Of a stretch of 60,547 bases of DNA, positions 25,093 to 31,520 are shown in pieces. This DNA comes from an uncultured Candidatus Saccharibacteria bacterium (GTDB lineage Bacteria > Patescibacteriota > Minisyncoccia > Phycocordibacterales > CAIRYW01), in contig CAZAOU010000003.1 of assembly GCA_964487135.1 (NCBI GenBank), positions 1 through 60,547 of the forward strand. The letters are read 5' to 3'. How positions within the stretch are numbered: position 1 is the first letter of the stretch; every line of letters starts with the position of its first letter. The notes beneath the pieces are model-generated. The model saw only the letters and a program-made list of their open reading frames with translations. It made no database searches and was not told the origin of the DNA. Position numbers and translations under genes: made by a program.

Positions 25093-27249
25093 TTAATTAG
25101 GCCACTTTTGAACCATCAAAAGAGAATCCTTATTCATATTTTGCCATATTTCTTCAGTTACGAAAGGCATAAATGGGTGGAGAAGTTTTAATATTGTTTC
25201 AAGGGTTGATAATAGAAACTGTTTTCTAGATTCTTTTTCCTCTTCGGTTCCATTTTCCAAAATTTTTTTACTTTCTTCTATAATTTTGTCTGCAAGAGTG
25301 TGCCAGATATAGTGGTATAACTTTTCCGCAACAATATGAAGTTTGTATTCTTCTAACTCTTTTGTAATTTCTTTTATAAATTCGTTATGGTCACTAAAGA
25401 GTTTTTTATCGTTATCATTAAGATTACTAATTTTTTCCTTAATTTTAATACCCTCTGTTGAACTTAAAACAAATCTAGAAATATTCCAAAGTTTATTCGC
25501 AAAATTTTTATATGCTTTTAGTTTTTCTTCAGACATTTTGCTGTCGTTTCCTGGACCTGTTCCTACAATGAGAGACATTCTTACGGCATCGGCGCCGTAT
25601 TTTGCAATCATCTCAAGCGGTTCAACATTATTTCCGAGGGATTTACTAATTTTTTGTCCTTTACTATCTCTTACAAGACCATGAAGATAAATTGTTTTAA
25701 AAGGAATTTCTCCAAGTAAATATTTACTCATCAAAATCATACGAGCAATCCAGAAAAAGATAATATCGTAGCCAGATTCTATAAGGGTGGTGGGGTGATA
25801 AGTTTTTAAATCTTCTGTCTGATCTGGCCAGCCTAGTGTAGAAAACGTCCAGAGGCCTGAAGAAAACCAAGTATCTAGAGTATCATGGTCTTGCTCAAAA
25901 CCTTCTTCTTTAGGAGCTTCTGTACCAACATAGATCTCATTGTTTTTATACCAAACAGGAATTCGATGTCCGTACCAAATTTGACGAGAAATACACCAAT
26001 CGCGCAGATTTTCTATCCAATTAAAATAAACCCTTTCAAATCTATCTGGAATAATTTTTATTCCATCTTTTCTAACAGCCTCTAACATGAGCTCTTTTAG
26101 ACTTTTATTTTCTCTTGATGGGATTTTTTTATTTACATCAATGAACCATTGGAGTTTGGGAAGGGGTTCAATTACTGCACCGGTTCTTTCTGCGGTTGAA
26201 ATATTTTGAACAACCTCTTCTTCTTTGATGAGAAGATTTTCCTTTCTAAGCCACTCCACAATTATTTCTCTTGCTTCAGATGTTTTTTTGCCTGAGAGAG
26301 TTGGCTCCTCAATAGACATCTTTGCAAACTCATTTATTACTTGAATTGTAGGTAGATTATGTCTTTTAGCAATTTCTGCATCTATCATGCTGTGGGCTGG
26401 AGTTACTCCTACGGCCCCAGTTCCATATTCTGGATCAACTGCATCATCCCCAACTATTTTTATTGAAAGGGGAACTCCAGCAAAATTTAGTTTAAATTCC
26501 TTCCCGATATATTTTTTGTATCTTTCATCGTTTGGATGAACCGCAACCGCCACATCACCTACTTTTGTTTCTGGTCTAGTGGTTGCGATAGGAATAGGGA
26601 AGTCGCTTGAATATTTGAATGTATAAATTTTACCTTTTCTTTCCTCGTATACTATTTCATCATCAGAAATCGTTGTTTGCCCTTTTGGGTCCCAGTTAAT
26701 AATTCTGTGAGCACGATAAATGAGTCCGTCATCAAACATTGTTTTAAATGCAGTGTATACAGCTCTCTCTCTTTTTTTATCTAAAGTAAATGCTTCACGA
26801 CTCCAATCGAGAGATGATCCAAGTGCTTTAAGCTGGTGAGTCATTGTTTCTTTATTATTTTGTGCAAATACTTCAACACGCTTTAGAAATTCTTCTCTTC
26901 CGAGATCTGTTTTTCTTTTACCTTCCTCTTTTTCAAGAATTTTTTCAACTTTTGATTGTGTGGCAATAGCAGCATGATCCATACCAGGAATCCATAATGT
27001 TTTATATCCTTTCATTCTGTTAAATCGAACAAGGGTGTCTTCAATTGCGAGCATAAAGGAACTTCCCATATGAAGTGTTCCTGTAACATTTGGAGGTGGT
27101 AAAACTATAGAAAATGCCGCAGCATCTTTTTCTGTAATGCCTTTTTCTACACAAACATCTGGGTTAAAAAAACCGCTCTCTTCCCAGAGCTTGTATATAC
27201 GACCCTCAGTTTCTTTTGGGTCGTAAGGTTTCAGAAATTTTTCATTCAT
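25093..27249 (-). CDS. valS: Valine--tRNA ligase (lacks the C-terminal coiled-coil domain)
   Basis: PPPNVTGTLHMG (HIGH), DWCISRQIWYGHRIP, KISKSLGN (KMSKS); ATG at 27249 preferred because 27258 overlaps the -10 box. Confidence 0.97.
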   Translation of the reverse strand: MNEKFLKPYDPKETEGRIYKLWEESGFFNPDVCVEKGITEKDAAAFSIVLPPPNVTGTLHMGSSFMLAIEDTLVRFNRMKGYKTLWIPGMDHAAIATQSKVEKILEKEEGKRKTDLGREEFLKRVEVFAQNNKETMTHQLKALGSSLDWSREAFTLDKKRERAVYTAFKTMFDDGLIYRAHRIINWDPKGQTTISDDEIVYEERKGKIYTFKYSSDFPIPIATTRPETKVGDVAVAVHPNDERYKKYIGKEFKLNFAGVPLSIKIVGDDAVDPEYGTGAVGVTPAHSMIDAEIAKRHNLPTIQVINEFAKMSIEEPTLSGKKTSEAREIIVEWLRKENLLIKEEEVVQNISTAERTGAVIEPLPKLQWFIDVNKKIPSRENKSLKELMLEAVRKDGIKIIPDRFERVYFNWIENLRDWCISRQIWYGHRIPVWYKNNEIYVGTEAPKEEGFEQDHDTLDTWFSSGLWTFSTLGWPDQTEDLKTYHPTTLIESGYDIIFFWIARMILMSKYLLGEIPFKTIYLHGLVRDSKGQKISKSLGNNVEPLEMIAKYGADAVRMSLIVGTGPGNDSKMSEEKLKAYKNFANKLWNISRFVLSSTEGIKIKEKISNLNDNDKKLFSDHNEFIKEITKELEEYKLHIVAEKLYHYIWHTLADKIIEESKKILENGTEEEKESRKQFLLSTLETILKLLHPFMPFVTEEIWQNMNKDSLLMVQKWPN

Positions 27250-27289
27250 AGAAGGCATTTTAGCAGAAATGAGCTGGTTTATAAAGGTA

Positions 27290-27474: not shown

Positions 27475-28608
27475 TTATAAAGACAGATTTCCCTGGGCAT
27501 TTTTTGGCGCTTTTAGTTTTTTTGATTTTATTCCCAAATATCCGGCAACAGCAATCATTAAAGCATTATCAGTTGATTGTTTCTTTTTTGGCAGAAGGAG
27601 TTTTATTTTGTGTGTCTTAGCAAGTTTTTTTATATTTTTTTGCAAAAATTTATTTGCAGAAACACCTCCGCCAACAATAAGTGTTTTTAGTTCATATTTT
27701 TCAATGGCTTTTTGGGTTTTGTATAAAAGTGTTTCTACAACCGCGTTTTCAAATTCTCTAGCAATTTTTAGTTTTATTTCTTCAGTAATTTCTCCTAAAT
27801 CTCTAATCAAATAAAGAACGGCGGTTTTTATTCCAGAAAAAGAAAAATTAAAATCAGGGCTTTTTATCATGGGGCGTGGCAATGACCAGCTACTAGCTTC
27901 TAGTTTTAAGCTCCTAGCTTTTTCTGCTAAGGCAGAAATTTGTGGTCCTCCTGGATAGGGAAGATTAAGCATTCTTGCCACTTTATCAAACGCTTCGCCT
28001 ACAGCATCATCAAGAGTTTTTCCTATAATTTGATAATTTAGAGGTTTTTTAGAATATACAAGTTCGGTGTGTCCGCCACTTACTAAAAGGGCTAGGGCAG
28101 GGTAAGAAATATATTCTTTATTAAGTAGAGGGGTAAGAAAGTGACCTTCCATATGATTTACTCCATATACTGGAATTTTCCAAAGTTCGCCAAGAGCTCT
28201 TGCAAAATTTATTCCAACCCAAAGAGTTGGCTCTAGTCCTGGGCCTTCAGTAACAACAATCGCATCAATTTTTGGTTTTGAAATATTGATTATGTGTTTT
28301 TCAAATTGTTCAAAGAGAAATGTCTCCTTCATTAATATTTTTTGAATTTTATTTTTTATTTTAGAATCAGCGTCTTTGTTTTTTGTTTTTTGATTTTTTA
28401 AAACTCTCAAAAAAAGTGGAATAAGATTTTTTTGATGCTCTCTTTTTGCCATCATAGGAAACACCCCTCCATATTGTTCATGAAGTTTTATTTGTGAATG
28501 TAAAGCTTGCGCAATAATATTAAAATTTGGTTTTAAAACTGTTCCCGATGCATCAACTAAAGCCACAGCCGTCTCATCACAACTTGTTTCAATTGCTAGT
28601 ATTTTCAT
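27475..28608 (-). CDS. tsaD: tRNA N6-adenosine threonylcarbamoyltransferase TsaD
   Basis: ILAIETSCDETAVA, GVNHMEGH, LLVSGGHT, DDAVGEAFDKVAR, STDNALMIA. Confidence 0.97.
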   Translation of the reverse strand: MKILAIETSCDETAVALVDASGTVLKPNFNIIAQALHSQIKLHEQYGGVFPMMAKREHQKNLIPLFLRVLKNQKTKNKDADSKIKNKIQKILMKETFLFEQFEKHIINISKPKIDAIVVTEGPGLEPTLWVGINFARALGELWKIPVYGVNHMEGHFLTPLLNKEYISYPALALLVSGGHTELVYSKKPLNYQIIGKTLDDAVGEAFDKVARMLNLPYPGGPQISALAEKARSLKLEASSWSLPRPMIKSPDFNFSFSGIKTAVLYLIRDLGEITEEIKLKIAREFENAVVETLLYKTQKAIEKYELKTLIVGGGVSANKFLQKNIKKLAKTHKIKLLLPKKKQSTDNALMIAVAGYLGIKSKKLKAPKNAQGNLSL

Positions 28609-28615
28609 ATATGTG

Positions 28616-28688
28616 TGGGCGGTAGAGGATTCGAACCTCTGACATCAACAACGTCAATGTTGCGCTCTACCAACTGAGCTAACCGCCC
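28616..28688 (-). tRNA. tRNA-Val(GAC)
   Basis: GGGCGGT/ACCGCCC acceptor, caaca-ttGACgt-tgttg. Confidence 0.95.
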
Positions 28689-28716
28689 TTATTTTAAGCC
28701 TACTAAGCTCAAATTT

Positions 28717-28788
28717 TGACCCCACGGAGAGTCGAACTCCGCTTAACAGATTGAAAACCTGCTGTCCTAACCGATAGACGATGGGGCC
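28717..28788 (-). tRNA. tRNA-Glu(TTC)
   Basis: GGCCCCA/TGGGGTC acceptor, ttTTCaa loop, GTTCGACT. Confidence 0.93.
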
Positions 28789-28905
28789 GTCCTAGCTGAG
28801 AAAATATAGCAATTTTTTGTAATTTTGGCAAAAAATAAATTAAAAATAACAACTATGTATATTTTATGATACAATGGAGACATAATAGATAACTAACTAA
28901 AATAT

Positions 28906-29178
28906 ATGAGATACGGAATTGGACATATGTCATATAACTACGGGATGCCTTTTGATAACGTTTTAGGCCTTCTCCCGTTGTTCTCGGTTTTATTCTTAAT
29001 AGCAATAGCTCTCAAAGCTTATTGTCTTTGGCATGCAGCAAGACGAGATGAGAAATGGTGGTTTATTGCATTAGTTTTAATAAACTCTCTAGGGCTTGTT
29101 GAACTAATTTATATCCTTTTTGTTCTCAAAAAGGTTCCATTTGCTAAAAAAGAGATTCACCACTTTCCAAAAGAATAA
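28906..29178 (+). CDS. Small membrane protein, DUF5652-like
   Basis: LKAYCLWHAARRDEKWWFIALVLINSLGLVELIY. Confidence 0.7.
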   Translation: MRYGIGHMSYNYGMPFDNVLGLLPLFSVLFLIAIALKAYCLWHAARRDEKWWFIALVLINSLGLVELIYILFVLKKVPFAKKEIHHFPKE

Positions 29179-29272
29179 AACAATTAGTATTTATATGTTG
29201 ATTAATCATACAAGATCAGTTTGGGCAAGTTTTAACTAAAGAATATTTTTCTTTAGTAGCCTTAACTTATGT

Positions 29273-29905
29273 ATGATTATGAATACCAAGATCTCTATTT
29301 GTCTTGCTGTATATATTACAGCGCTTCTAGCCTCTAATACTTTAGGAATAAAACTTCTACCATTTTTGTTTGGTGGAAGTATTTCTGTCGCCATATTCTT
29401 TTTTCCAATAGTTTTTCTTATGACTGATGTAATTTCCGAAGTTTATGGAAGAGAAACTGGCAGAATGTTTGTTAGGTGCGGTTTTTATTCAACTGCCATT
29501 TTTACTTTTTTTGTTTTTATTGCAGGAATATTACCAGCAGGACCTCGCTTTGAAATTAATAATAGCTTTAACGATGTTTTTTCTCTGTCGTCTAGATTTT
29601 TAATTGCGTCTTTTATTGCTTATGCAATAGGAGAATTTCAGGATGTTAAGCTGTTCAATTATCTCAAAATAAAATTCCATAAATTTTTCTTGTTTAGGTC
29701 TTTTCTCTCAAATTTATGGAGTCAGTTTCTTGACAGTGCTCTGTGGTTTTCTATTGCCTACGGAGGACTTATGCCTGTAAGCACAATACTGTCTATTATG
29801 ATCCCGTGGTGGCTTTATAAGGTTGGAATGGGTCTTGTGTACAGCCCACTTGCATTACTAGGAGTAAAAATTCTCAAATATGAAAGTGAAGGCAATAAAA
29901 ACTAG
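29273..29905 (+). CDS. Queuosine-precursor (VUT/YhhQ family) transporter
   Basis: LASNTLGIK, FPIVFLMTDVISEVYG, ASFIAYAIGEFQDV, RSFLSNLWSQFLDS. Confidence 0.85.
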   Translation: MIMNTKISICLAVYITALLASNTLGIKLLPFLFGGSISVAIFFFPIVFLMTDVISEVYGRETGRMFVRCGFYSTAIFTFFVFIAGILPAGPRFEINNSFNDVFSLSSRFLIASFIAYAIGEFQDVKLFNYLKIKFHKFFLFRSFLSNLWSQFLDSALWFSIAYGGLMPVSTILSIMIPWWLYKVGMGLVYSPLALLGVKILKYESEGNKN

Positions 29906-30575
29906 AGTTTTTAGGGAGCATGAAAATCTTGTTGATTTTATAAAAGAACATCTGAGGAAAATTTCTGAGAATTCAGTTTTGGTGGTTACCTCTAAAATAG
30001 TTGCCCTTTCTGAAGGACGAGTTGTAGATGTCTCTTCTCAAAAACAAAAAGAAAAAATTATTAAAAAAGAATCATCCTTTGCTATAAAAACAAAATGGGC
30101 TTGGCTTACCATAAAAGATGGTGTTGTTATGGCCTCGGCTGGAATTGATGAGTCAAATGCAAATGGCAAGTTGATTTTGTTGCCAAAGAACAGTTTCAAA
30201 TCTGCTTTTACGCTTAGAAATGAATTAAAGAAAAAATACGGATTAAAAAATTTTGGAATTCTAATTACTGATAGTAGAACTACTCCTTTACGGAAAGGTG
30301 TAACGGGGCAGGCCATAGGATACGCTGGTTTTAAAGGCCTGAAATCTTATATTGGAAAACCAGATATTTTTAAAAGAAAATTTTCTTTCTCAACAGTTAA
30401 TATTGCGGATAGTTTGGCCACATCGGCGGTGCTAGAAATGGGCGAGGGAAACGAGAAGTGTCCACTGGCAATTATTCAATCCAATAAAATTAAATTTATA
30501 GAGAGGACAAACAAAGATGAAATAAAAATATCAATAAAGGATGATATGTATAGGCCTTTGTTTAAAAGATTATAG
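29880..30575 (+). CDS. CofE-like gamma-glutamyl ligase
   Basis: VVTSKIVALSEGR, ASAGIDESN, ILITDSRTTPLRKG..G.AIG, NIADSLA..AVLEMGEGNE..P. Confidence 0.85.
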   Translation: MKVKAIKTRVFREHENLVDFIKEHLRKISENSVLVVTSKIVALSEGRVVDVSSQKQKEKIIKKESSFAIKTKWAWLTIKDGVVMASAGIDESNANGKLILLPKNSFKSAFTLRNELKKKYGLKNFGILITDSRTTPLRKGVTGQAIGYAGFKGLKSYIGKPDIFKRKFSFSTVNIADSLATSAVLEMGEGNEKCPLAIIQSNKIKFIERTNKDEIKISIKDDMYRPLFKRL

Positions 30576-30587
30576 TCACAGATGGGG

Positions 30588-31520
30588 CTATTTTGTGTGA
30601 AGATTTATATAGATGTCTTCTAATGCTTTTACAGCGTCTCCTGATGCAATGTTGTTTTGGTGGTAAAGCCCATCTGTGCAATCTCCAGCTGCCCAGATTC
30701 CAGAGGTAGAAGTTTGTTGGGTTTTAGGATCCACCACAACCTGTCCTCCCGCTGTAAGATTTATTATATTCTTTGCAAATTCTGTATTTGGTAATAATCC
30801 AATTTCTACAAATATTCCTGTAACGGGAAGTTTAACAATTTCTCCGGATGTGGTTTGATAAGAAATTCCATTAACAAATTTGTCACCAGAAACTTCTATA
30901 ATTTTTGCTTCTGTAACTGATTTTACATTTGGTTTTGCTAAAACTTTTTCAACGGTGATTGCATCAGCTCTAAATTTTTCGCTTCGATGAAGGAGTGTTA
31001 CAGATTTACAATAGGCAGATAACTGAGCCACTGTTTCAAAAGCAGCATTTCCGCCTCCAATTACCACAACATCCTGATTGTCATAAAGAGGTCCATCGCA
31101 AGTTGCGCAGTAGGTGAGACCTTTGTGTTCAAATTCTTTTGCGCCTTTTGCATCTAGTTTTCTTCGAACACTTCCTGTAGCTATTAAAATTGTTTTCGAA
31201 AGAATTTTTTTGCCATCATCTGTATGTGTTGCGAATAATTCTCCTTCTTTTGTAATATTTTCTACTTTTACTCCCGTAACAATATTTAAAAAATCGCCAG
31301 CGTATGCTTTGAGGTGATTTTCTAGTGATTTTGCAAAGTCTATTCCAGAAATAGAAGGGGTTCCAATCCAGTTTTGAATGTTTTCTGATACAGAACTTTG
31401 ACTTTCAAAAGAGTAGGTTACAAAAGCTGTTTTTATTCTTTTGCGAGCAGCATAAACACCCGCTGACACTCCAGCAGGCCCACCTCCAATTATTGTGAGT
31501 TCAAAAGGTTCTGTGTTCAA
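30588..31520 (-). CDS. trxB: Thioredoxin reductase-like FAD oxidoreductase
   Basis: IIGGGPAG, YCATCDGP, VIGGGNAA, GIWAAGDCT. Confidence 0.88.
   Translation of the reverse strand: MNTEPFELTIIGGGPAGVSAGVYAARKRIKTAFVTYSFESQSSVSENIQNWIGTPSISGIDFAKSLENHLKAYAGDFLNIVTGVKVENITKEGELFATHTDDGKKILSKTILIATGSVRRKLDAKGAKEFEHKGLTYCATCDGPLYDNQDVVVIGGGNAAFETVAQLSAYCKSVTLLHRSEKFRADAITVEKVLAKPNVKSVTEAKIIEVSGDKFVNGISYQTTSGEIVKLPVTGIFVEIGLLPNTEFAKNIINLTAGGQVVVDPKTQQTSTSGIWAAGDCTDGLYHQNNIASGDAVKALEDIYINLHTK

What the first reader, a model, noticed from the sequence alone, without database searches (positions are those of the whole stretch)
29273..30575. VUT/YhhQ transporter coupled to a CofE-like glutamyl ligase
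Seen: the two genes overlap by 26 bp and stand as an isolated pair. Established: YhhQ imports preQ0/preQ1; CofE adds glutamates to F420-0, and CofE homologs in Chlamydia act in folate glutamylation. No tgt, fol or cof genes are in this window. Inference: an import-and-trap salvage module for a pterin, deazaflavin or deazaguanine-type cofactor taken from a host, implying a non-queuosine substrate or a new glutamylated product.
Basis: partly seen in the sequence, partly recalled or inferred. Interest (0 to 1): 0.55.

Follow-up and report, generated by a model that had tools for sequence, protein, structure and literature searches.

The report
Folate import-and-trap gene pair, Patescibacteria
A tiny-genome bacterium that cannot make the vitamin folate carries two overlapping genes that most likely import folate and add glutamate tails so it stays in the cell; the importer belongs to a family known only for carrying queuosine precursors, so databases probably misname it.

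Summary
The pair is real: a 210-aa VUT/YhhQ transporter overlaps a 231-aa CofE-family ligase by 26 bp, in a 712-kb Patescibacteria genome. The ligase is FolC2-like (Chlamydia CT611 type), not F420 CofE: GTP/metal residues kept, F420-stacking arginine replaced, no cofD, and in 261 Patescibacteria it excludes canonical FolC (1 overlap, 8.6 expected). This genome has thyA, a DHFR-like reductase, glyA, folD and fmt but no folE, folK, folP or folC; it also has tgt. The transporter falls in a well-supported VUT clade whose 12 sampled genomes all have FolC2 or FolC (other VUTs 8/20). Folate genes flank 49/56 metagenome homologues, tgt or queF none; all deazaguanine-linked VUTs tested lie outside the clade; several genomes keep a second, queuosine-type VUT; VUT-FolC2 fusions exist. 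Best reading: folate import and glutamylation (about 0.7). The substrate is inferred, not measured; queuine transport or dual specificity remains possible because this is the genome's only VUT. Deazaflavin or glutamylated deazaguanine is not supported. No paper linking VUT to folate was found. The scan noted the same module earlier in at least seven other genomes.

The parts
29273..29905 (+). VUT/YhhQ (COG1738, PF02592) membrane transporter, 210 aa, of a folate-linked clade; predicted folate importer with an ECF S-component-like fold
   Evidence: family; clade; model pLDDT 88.8; 15 of the top 16 fold matches are ECF S-components
29880..30575 (+). FolC2-like (CofE/COG1478 family, PF01996) gamma-glutamate ligase, 231 aa; predicted folylpolyglutamate synthase
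   Evidence: family and residues; mutual exclusion with FolC; relative fused to the CADD folate protein
29880..29905 (+). 26-bp overlap between the transporter's end and the ligase's start, consistent with translational coupling
   Evidence: short overlaps or gaps recur in homologous loci

Best explanation
A folate salvage unit. (1) The VUT protein, a stand-alone S-component-like carrier, takes up an intact folate (most likely a mono-glutamyl folate, possibly pteroate) from the host or surroundings [inferred from genomic context; not measured]. (2) The DHFR-like reductase, encoded on another contig here and between the two genes in many relatives, reduces it to tetrahydrofolate [inferred]. (3) The FolC2-like ligase activates the terminal carboxylate with GTP and metal ions and adds gamma-linked glutamates, as CofE does on F420 [chemistry by homology; FolC activity shown genetically only for Chlamydia CT611]. 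The tail keeps the cofactor inside and could pull uptake forward without an ECF ATPase [inferred]. (4) The trapped folate feeds ThyA, GlyA, FolD and Fmt, all present in this genome [genes shown].
For: Need: thyA, DHFR-like gene, glyA, folD, fmt present; folP, folC, folE, folK, thyX and ECF-type FolT not found in a 97%-complete genome. Ligase: TIGR04132 is the best model; A. fulgidus CofE D109, D150, E208 align with invariant D90, D131, E189, while F420-stacking R234 aligns with a conserved Ile217; 48 ligase genomes and 47 folC genomes of 261 overlap in one (expected 8.6, Fisher p 6e-4); a relative is fused to the CADD folate protein. Transporter: one clade (100/95 to 100/99) holds every folC2-, glyA- and one canonical folC-adjacent VUT, and no tgt- or queF-adjacent one; E. 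coli YhhQ and four phage deazaguanine-cluster VUTs fall outside. 12/12 clade genomes have FolC2 or FolC against 8/20 with other VUTs only and 94/261 overall (p 6e-4). 49/56 metagenome homologues have a folate gene within 3 kb, none tgt or queF. In 31 close relatives the clade VUT is in 8, always beside the ligase, while tgt is in 30. Two clade genomes lack tgt. Four phylum-sample genomes, two same-family genomes and both fusion carriers keep a second VUT from another clade. Seven VUT-FolC2 fusions form the sister clade; two carriers lack folP and folC and have thyA.
Against: No transport or ligase assay exists for these proteins. All tested VUT proteins carry preQ0, preQ1 or queuine (PMC5372724, PMC11570991, PMC11130926). 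This genome has tgt without queA, queC or queF and only this one VUT, so it could use a queuine importer. A cassette inherited as a unit gives co-occurrence whatever the function, and kin are not independent, so the p values overstate. The ligase stays below the TIGR04132 cut-off (230.8 of 350). The module is dispensable: 8 of 18 same-family genomes have thyA without the ligase. One VUT outside the clade also sits next to folC (L113). The fold match does not single out FolT (Z 9.2-10.2 against 12.2 for RibU). The Chlamydia queuine transporter could not be placed on the tree.
Confidence: 0.7

Rival explanations
1. The transporter is still a queuine or preQ importer serving tgt, and rides in a cassette with an unrelated folate ligase because of an old rearrangement.
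For: Passes TIGR00697 'queuosine precursor transporter'; all characterised family members carry deazaguanines; the genome has tgt, no preQ synthesis and no second VUT.
Against: tgt is in 228/261 genomes but VUT in 32, so most feed tgt without any VUT. The clade is never beside tgt or queF (0/56, 0/12), occurs in genomes without tgt, coexists with queuosine-type paralogues, and pairs with several unrelated folate genes including canonical folC, in tandem, convergent and fused layouts, which one inherited cassette does not explain.
Confidence: 0.12
2. Dual specificity: the carrier imports folates but still passes queuine or preQ1, since pterin and 7-deazaguanine share the 2-amino-4-oxo-pyrimidine edge.
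For: Shared ring chemistry (own knowledge); most core VUT residues are kept in the clade (K27, P45, D52, E56, R108, S113, D154, K183); sole VUT in a tgt-bearing genome; relaxed specificity is known in Bartonella QPTR (PMC11570991).
Against: Many genomes keep a separate second VUT; the clade has its own conserved residues in the first hairpin region (G25, S38, V39); no positive link to tgt.
Confidence: 0.1
3. The carrier moves another folate-pathway compound (p-aminobenzoyl-glutamate, a free pterin, or glutamate for the ligase), or exports folate breakdown products.
For: Context links it to the pathway but cannot name the molecule; one clade genome (G162) has folP.
Against: 11 of 12 clade genomes and both fusion carriers lack folP, so pterin or pABA pieces could not be joined; S-component folds bind vitamins for import.
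Confidence: 0.05
4. One reading: salvage of F420-0/deazaflavin, or glutamylation of an imported deazaguanine into a new product.
For: The ligase has the CofE fold (PDB 2PHN, 7ULD; E 6e-22); the aromatic at CofE F92 is kept as W75.
Against: No cofD in this genome or four other clade genomes; score below all CofE cut-offs; R234 replaced and the 151-155 segment changed; no F420 or que gene recurs in 136 neighbourhoods; preQ0, preQ1 and queuine have no carboxylate for CofE chemistry (own knowledge); exclusion with folC points to the same job as FolC.
Confidence: 0.03

Closest known systems
FolC2 (Chlamydia trachomatis CT611; COG1478; NCBIfam TIGR04132), de Crecy-Lagard et al. 2007 (PMC1971073), Adams et al. 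2014 (PMC4161248)
   Same: CofE-fold ligase standing in for FolC; clusters with DHFR and other folate genes; genomes lack folC and cof genes; best NCBIfam model over 236 of 241 positions.
   Different: Chlamydia uses it in a de novo operon (folB-folKP-folA-folC2-ct610); here folP, folK, folE and CADD are not found and the partner is a transporter. Score is below the model's cut-off.
QPTR/YhhQ (COG1738, PF02592, TC 2.A.88), Zallot et al. 2017 (PMC5372724), Quaiyum et al. 2024 (PMC11570991)
   Same: Same family and size, core residues kept, no ECF T component in the genome.
   Different: Separate clade; tied to folate genes rather than tgt, que genes or preQ1 riboswitches; fused to FolC2 rather than TGT; coexists with queuosine-type paralogues.
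FolT, folate S-component of ECF transporters (PDB 5D0Y, 4Z7F)
   Same: Predicted job (folate import in auxotrophs) and overall S-component fold (Z 10.2, rmsd 3.8 A over 151 residues; Z 9.2).
   Different: No sequence match (PF12822 not hit; 9-13% identity in the structural alignment); no EcfT in 12 clade genomes; fold match no better than to RibU, PanT or BioY.
CofE/FbiB F420:gamma-glutamyl ligase (A. fulgidus CofE, PDB 2PHN, 7ULD), Bashiri et al. 2024 (PMC10861534)
   Same: Fold and the acidic GTP/metal residues.
   Different: Below cut-offs of TIGR01916 and PRK13293/4; F420-stacking R234 is Ile; no cofD in the genome.

Membership tests
VUT/YhhQ family (PF02592, COG1738) | Match to PF02592 and TIGR00697 above cut-off | tested here: met
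   123.7 vs 27.2 bits; 109.5 vs 50.95 bits
VUT/YhhQ family (PF02592, COG1738) | About six membrane helices, stand-alone (no ECF T/A module) | tested here: met
   Model with six long helices, pLDDT 88.8; PF02361 not found in 12 clade genomes
QPTR (queuosine-precursor transporter function) | Clustering with tgt or que genes, or a preQ1 riboswitch upstream | tested here: not met
   0/56 metagenome loci and 0/12 clade genomes beside tgt or queF; no preQ1 riboswitch at E<=10 in 28500-30700
QPTR (queuosine-precursor transporter function) | Genome has tgt or a deazaguanine DNA-modification system | tested here: inconclusive
   Met in this genome but tgt is in 87% of the phylum; not found in clade genomes G162 and G088, where dpd genes were not searched
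QPTR (queuosine-precursor transporter function) | Groups with characterised or deazaguanine-cluster members | tested here: inconclusive
QPTR (queuosine-precursor transporter function) | Transports preQ0, preQ1 or queuine | not testable with these tools
   Needs complementation of E. coli queD yhhQ
FolC2 (CT611, TIGR04132) | TIGR04132 above cut-off | tested here: not met
   230.8 vs 350 bits; it is still the best model by 100 bits, and Cardinium (328.6) and CADD-fused (320.5) relatives also miss the cut-off
FolC2 (CT611, TIGR04132) | Clusters with folate genes | tested here: met
   Of 80 ligase loci: DHFR/RibD_C reductase 20, thyA 14, glyA 11, folD 4; CADD fusion
FolC2 (CT611, TIGR04132) | Replaces folC in genomes without cof genes | tested here: met
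   No folC or cofD here; 1 overlap with folC among 48 and 47 of 261 genomes
FolC2 (CT611, TIGR04132) | Complements a folC mutant or glutamylates folate | not testable with these tools
   Shown only for CT611 (PMC1971073)
CofE F420-0:L-glutamate ligase | TIGR01916 or PRK13293/13294 above cut-off | tested here: not met
   130.3 vs 180.65; 126.2 vs 274; 119.8 vs 304
CofE F420-0:L-glutamate ligase | Acidic GTP/metal residues (Af D109, D150, E208; roles from own knowledge) | tested here: met
   D90, D131, E189, invariant in 34 homologues
CofE F420-0:L-glutamate ligase | F420 ring contacts (Af R234, F92, G153-C155) | tested here: not met
   R234 aligns with I217 (>=90% conserved); G153-C155 with T134-T135-P136; F92 with W75. 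From pairwise alignment only
CofE F420-0:L-glutamate ligase | cofD in the genome | tested here: not met
   None over cut-off in this and four other clade genomes; cofC, cofG, cofH not searched
FolT (ECF folate S-component) | PF12822 match and an ECF T/A module | tested here: not met

The most novel reading that the evidence does not exclude
A distinct clade of the YhhQ/VUT family, spread across Patescibacteria and fused to FolC2 in Oligoflexia-type predators, is an undescribed class of bacterial folate importer that works without an ECF ATPase and is driven by glutamylation trapping; it is the first non-deazaguanine substrate for the family.
Probability: 0.65. Interest if true: 0.7.

Novelty: new variant of a known kind. 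Interest (0 to 1): 0.55.

Why it matters
Bacterial folate importers are poorly covered: many folate auxotrophs have no known carrier (PMC1971073, PMC5615194). A folate-specific YhhQ clade would add a family, correct the 'queuosine precursor transporter' name that NCBI and JGI give these proteins, and name a metabolite that host-dependent Patescibacteria take from their hosts. It extends FolC2, shown in one Chlamydia protein, to a salvage role in about a fifth of sampled Patescibacteria. Both predictions can be tested with standard E. coli mutants.

Tried and rejected
Rfam scan of 28500-30700 found only two tRNAs; no preQ1 or THF riboswitch. Promoter-like sites were at chance level, 6 against 7.8. 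tgt presence was tried as a test and is nearly uninformative (228/261). folP absence is also the background (15/261 have it). No solved structure matches the transporter by sequence; Foldseek gave no E<=0.001 match; the fold match cannot name a substrate. A fusion search with the single VUT sequence found nothing; the ligase alignment found seven fusions. The ESM Atlas only returned Vut_1 clusters. Paper searches for YhhQ+CofE, PF02592+folate, Patescibacteria+folate+queuosine and CPR+folate salvage+FolC gave no paper; VUT+folate and COG1738+folate gave none that links them in the passages read; the library lacks most subscription papers. Yuan et al. 2019 was not held, and CT611 and the Chlamydia QPTR sequences could not be fetched. 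No complex prediction was run because binding is not claimed. GC content of both genes (0.33-0.34) is close to the window (0.36), giving no sign of recent transfer.

Full report
Observation. Both ORFs are as described: 29273-29905 (+, 210 aa) and 29880-30575 (+, 231 aa), overlapping by 26 bp. The first is Vut_1/TIGR00697; the second is PF01996, with TIGR04132 (putative folate metabolism gamma-glutamate ligase, 230.8 bits, cut-off 350) well ahead of CofE TIGR01916 (130.3, cut-off 180.65). A DUF5652 ORF lies 94 bp upstream on the same strand and a thioredoxin-reductase-like gene converges 12 bp downstream. No riboswitch was found. The genome is 712 kb, 35 contigs, 97% complete; its closest ligase relatives come from Nomurabacteria and Paceibacteria records, so it is a Patescibacteria (CPR) genome.

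What the genome can do. It has thyA, dcd, a DHFR-like reductase, glyA, folD and tmk together on contig C5, fmt on C2 and tgt on C1. Not found: folP, folC, folE, folK, thyX, 5-formyl-THF cyclo-ligase, queA, queC, queF, cofD, ECF S-component PF12822 and EcfT (folE, folK, queC, queF and the cyclo-ligase were tested with single E. coli queries only). So it needs folate, cannot build it, and has no other recognised glutamylase or folate carrier. It also needs queuine if its tgt is active, and this is its only VUT.

The ligase. It aligns with A. fulgidus CofE (E 6e-22). CofE D109, D150 and E208, which bind metal and GTP (own knowledge), map to D90, D131 and E189, invariant in 34 homologues. The arginine that stacks on the F420 ring (R234; PMC10861534) maps to a conserved Ile217, and the 151-155 segment is changed. 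Among 80 ligase loci the recurring neighbours are VUT (22), DHFR/RibD_C reductases (20), thyA (14), glyA (11) and folD (4). In 261 Patescibacteria, 48 have a strong PF01996 match (E<1e-20, my tally; a few may be other subfamilies) and 47 have folC, but only one has both, against 8.6 expected. A relative is fused to CADD, the CT610 folate protein. This matches FolC2: Chlamydia CT611 complements an E. coli folC mutant (PMC1971073; PMC4161248). I put folate glutamylation at about 0.9.

The transporter. VUT is in 32 of 261 genomes while tgt is in 228, so tgt alone says little. Trees built with and without the ligase-selected sequences give one clade (96/99, 100/99, 100/95) that holds the query. 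In the transporter-first sample it has 12 members from 10 families: six beside folC2, one beside glyA, one overlapping canonical folC, four elsewhere. All 12 genomes have FolC2 or FolC, against 8 of 20 genomes with other VUTs only and 94 of 261 overall (Fisher p 6e-4, overstated by kinship); G218's ligase match is in two pieces and less certain. VUTs beside tgt or queF, E. coli YhhQ and four phage VUTs from que/tgt clusters all fall outside. Two clade genomes, one with a VUT-reductase-folC2 operon, have no tgt found. Of 56 metagenome homologues, 42 have folC2, one folC and 49 some folate gene within 3 kb; none has tgt or queF (some loci are duplicates). Among 31 close relatives the clade VUT is in 8, always next to the ligase, while tgt is in 30. 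Four of five two-VUT genomes in the phylum sample carry one clade and one non-clade copy. Seven VUT-FolC2 fusion proteins, one named from an Oligoflexia genome, form the sister group (94/87, 95/88); two carriers lack folP and folC, have thyA, and keep a second VUT that groups with queF- and tgt-linked ones. The predicted structure (pLDDT 88.8) has the ECF S-component fold: 15 of the top 16 matches, RibU Z 12.2 (rmsd 3.7 A, 162 residues), FolT Z 10.2 (rmsd 3.8 A, 151 residues). That shows a vitamin-carrier scaffold, not the substrate.

Mechanism. Most likely the carrier imports an intact folate or pteroate (pieces would be useless without folP), the reductase makes tetrahydrofolate, and the ligase adds gamma-glutamates through a GTP-derived acyl phosphate, which retains the cofactor for ThyA, GlyA, FolD and Fmt. 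Gene content and linkage are shown; substrate, direction and energetics are inferred. With no EcfT in 12 clade genomes, trapping by glutamylation may itself drive net uptake; this is speculation.

Limits. Nothing was assayed. Co-inherited cassettes inflate co-occurrence, though the links to canonical folC, glyA, thyA and folD, convergent layouts (L142, L154) and unlinked cases argue against simple hitch-hiking. One non-clade VUT also sits beside folC (L113). The unit is accessory: 8 of 18 same-family genomes have thyA without the ligase. The Chlamydia queuine carrier could not be placed. Queuine transport (0.12) or dual specificity (0.10) remains open.

Novelty. The ligase is a further member of a known kind. 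The transporter would be a new variant: all characterised YhhQ/QPTR proteins carry deazaguanines (PMC5372724, PMC11570991, PMC11130926), sources name these proteins queuosine precursor transporters, and no paper tying the family to folate was found in the held library. Earlier notes of this scan reached the same reading in at least seven other genomes; I stated my reading before looking, took the fusion lead from one note and checked it, and do not count them as evidence. Verdict: real, conserved, probably a folate import-and-trap pair; interest 0.55.

Noticed in passing
own genome contig C1:62818-64014 (-); L081: The tgt has GFGIGGSYTK where E. coli has GGLAVG and queuine-using enzymes have GG[LS][AS]G; with no queA, queC or queF its substrate is open. 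tgt is in 228/261 Patescibacteria but VUT in 32, so most must get the base by an unknown route.
   Followed up: partly
window 28906-29178 (+): DUF5652 small membrane protein 94 bp upstream of the pair; not seen upstream in the seven same-family loci, probably a bystander.
   Followed up: partly
window 28615-28788 (-): tRNA-Glu(TTC) and tRNA-Val(GAC) lie directly before tsaD (27475-28608); tRNA-Val ends 6-7 nt before the start codon.
   Followed up: no
proteins P0122-P0124; L009:3190-4209, L010:5820-6836, L159, L161: A RimK/cyanophycin-synthetase-like ATP-grasp ligase lies beside or is fused to FolC2 in some genomes; a distant homologue is on own contig C14:3556-4761. It may extend or cap folate tails.
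   Followed up: partly
protein P0121: CADD (CT610)-FolC2 fusion deposited as a rotifer (Rotaria) protein; probably from a bacterial endosymbiont or contaminant.
   Followed up: partly
L009:1982-2506, L031:4466-5020, L104:788-1492; own C5:27266-27829: The reductase placed between VUT and folC2 is RibD_C-type rather than classical FolA and can coexist with a classical FolA; the own genome's only DHFR-like gene is also divergent (64 bits on PF00186).
   Followed up: partly
own genome contig C5:24867-25736: ThyA is of a divergent type (177 bits on PF00303 against about 400 in other family members); two ThyA types are mixed within the family.
   Followed up: no
L190 (G269:C2:196550-197255): The folC2 beside an intact clade VUT is split by a frameshift; could be an assembly error or decay.
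   Followed up: no
L113 (G040:C2:103127-105043): A VUT from a different clade sits directly after canonical folC; a possible second recruitment to folate, or chance.
   Followed up: partly
G068, G150, G224, G249: PF01996 proteins of about 400 aa with a long insertion in one Patescibacteria family; G101, G114 and G148 carry two copies.
   Followed up: no
window 25093-27258 (-): ValRS is only 721 aa, short for the family.
   Followed up: no
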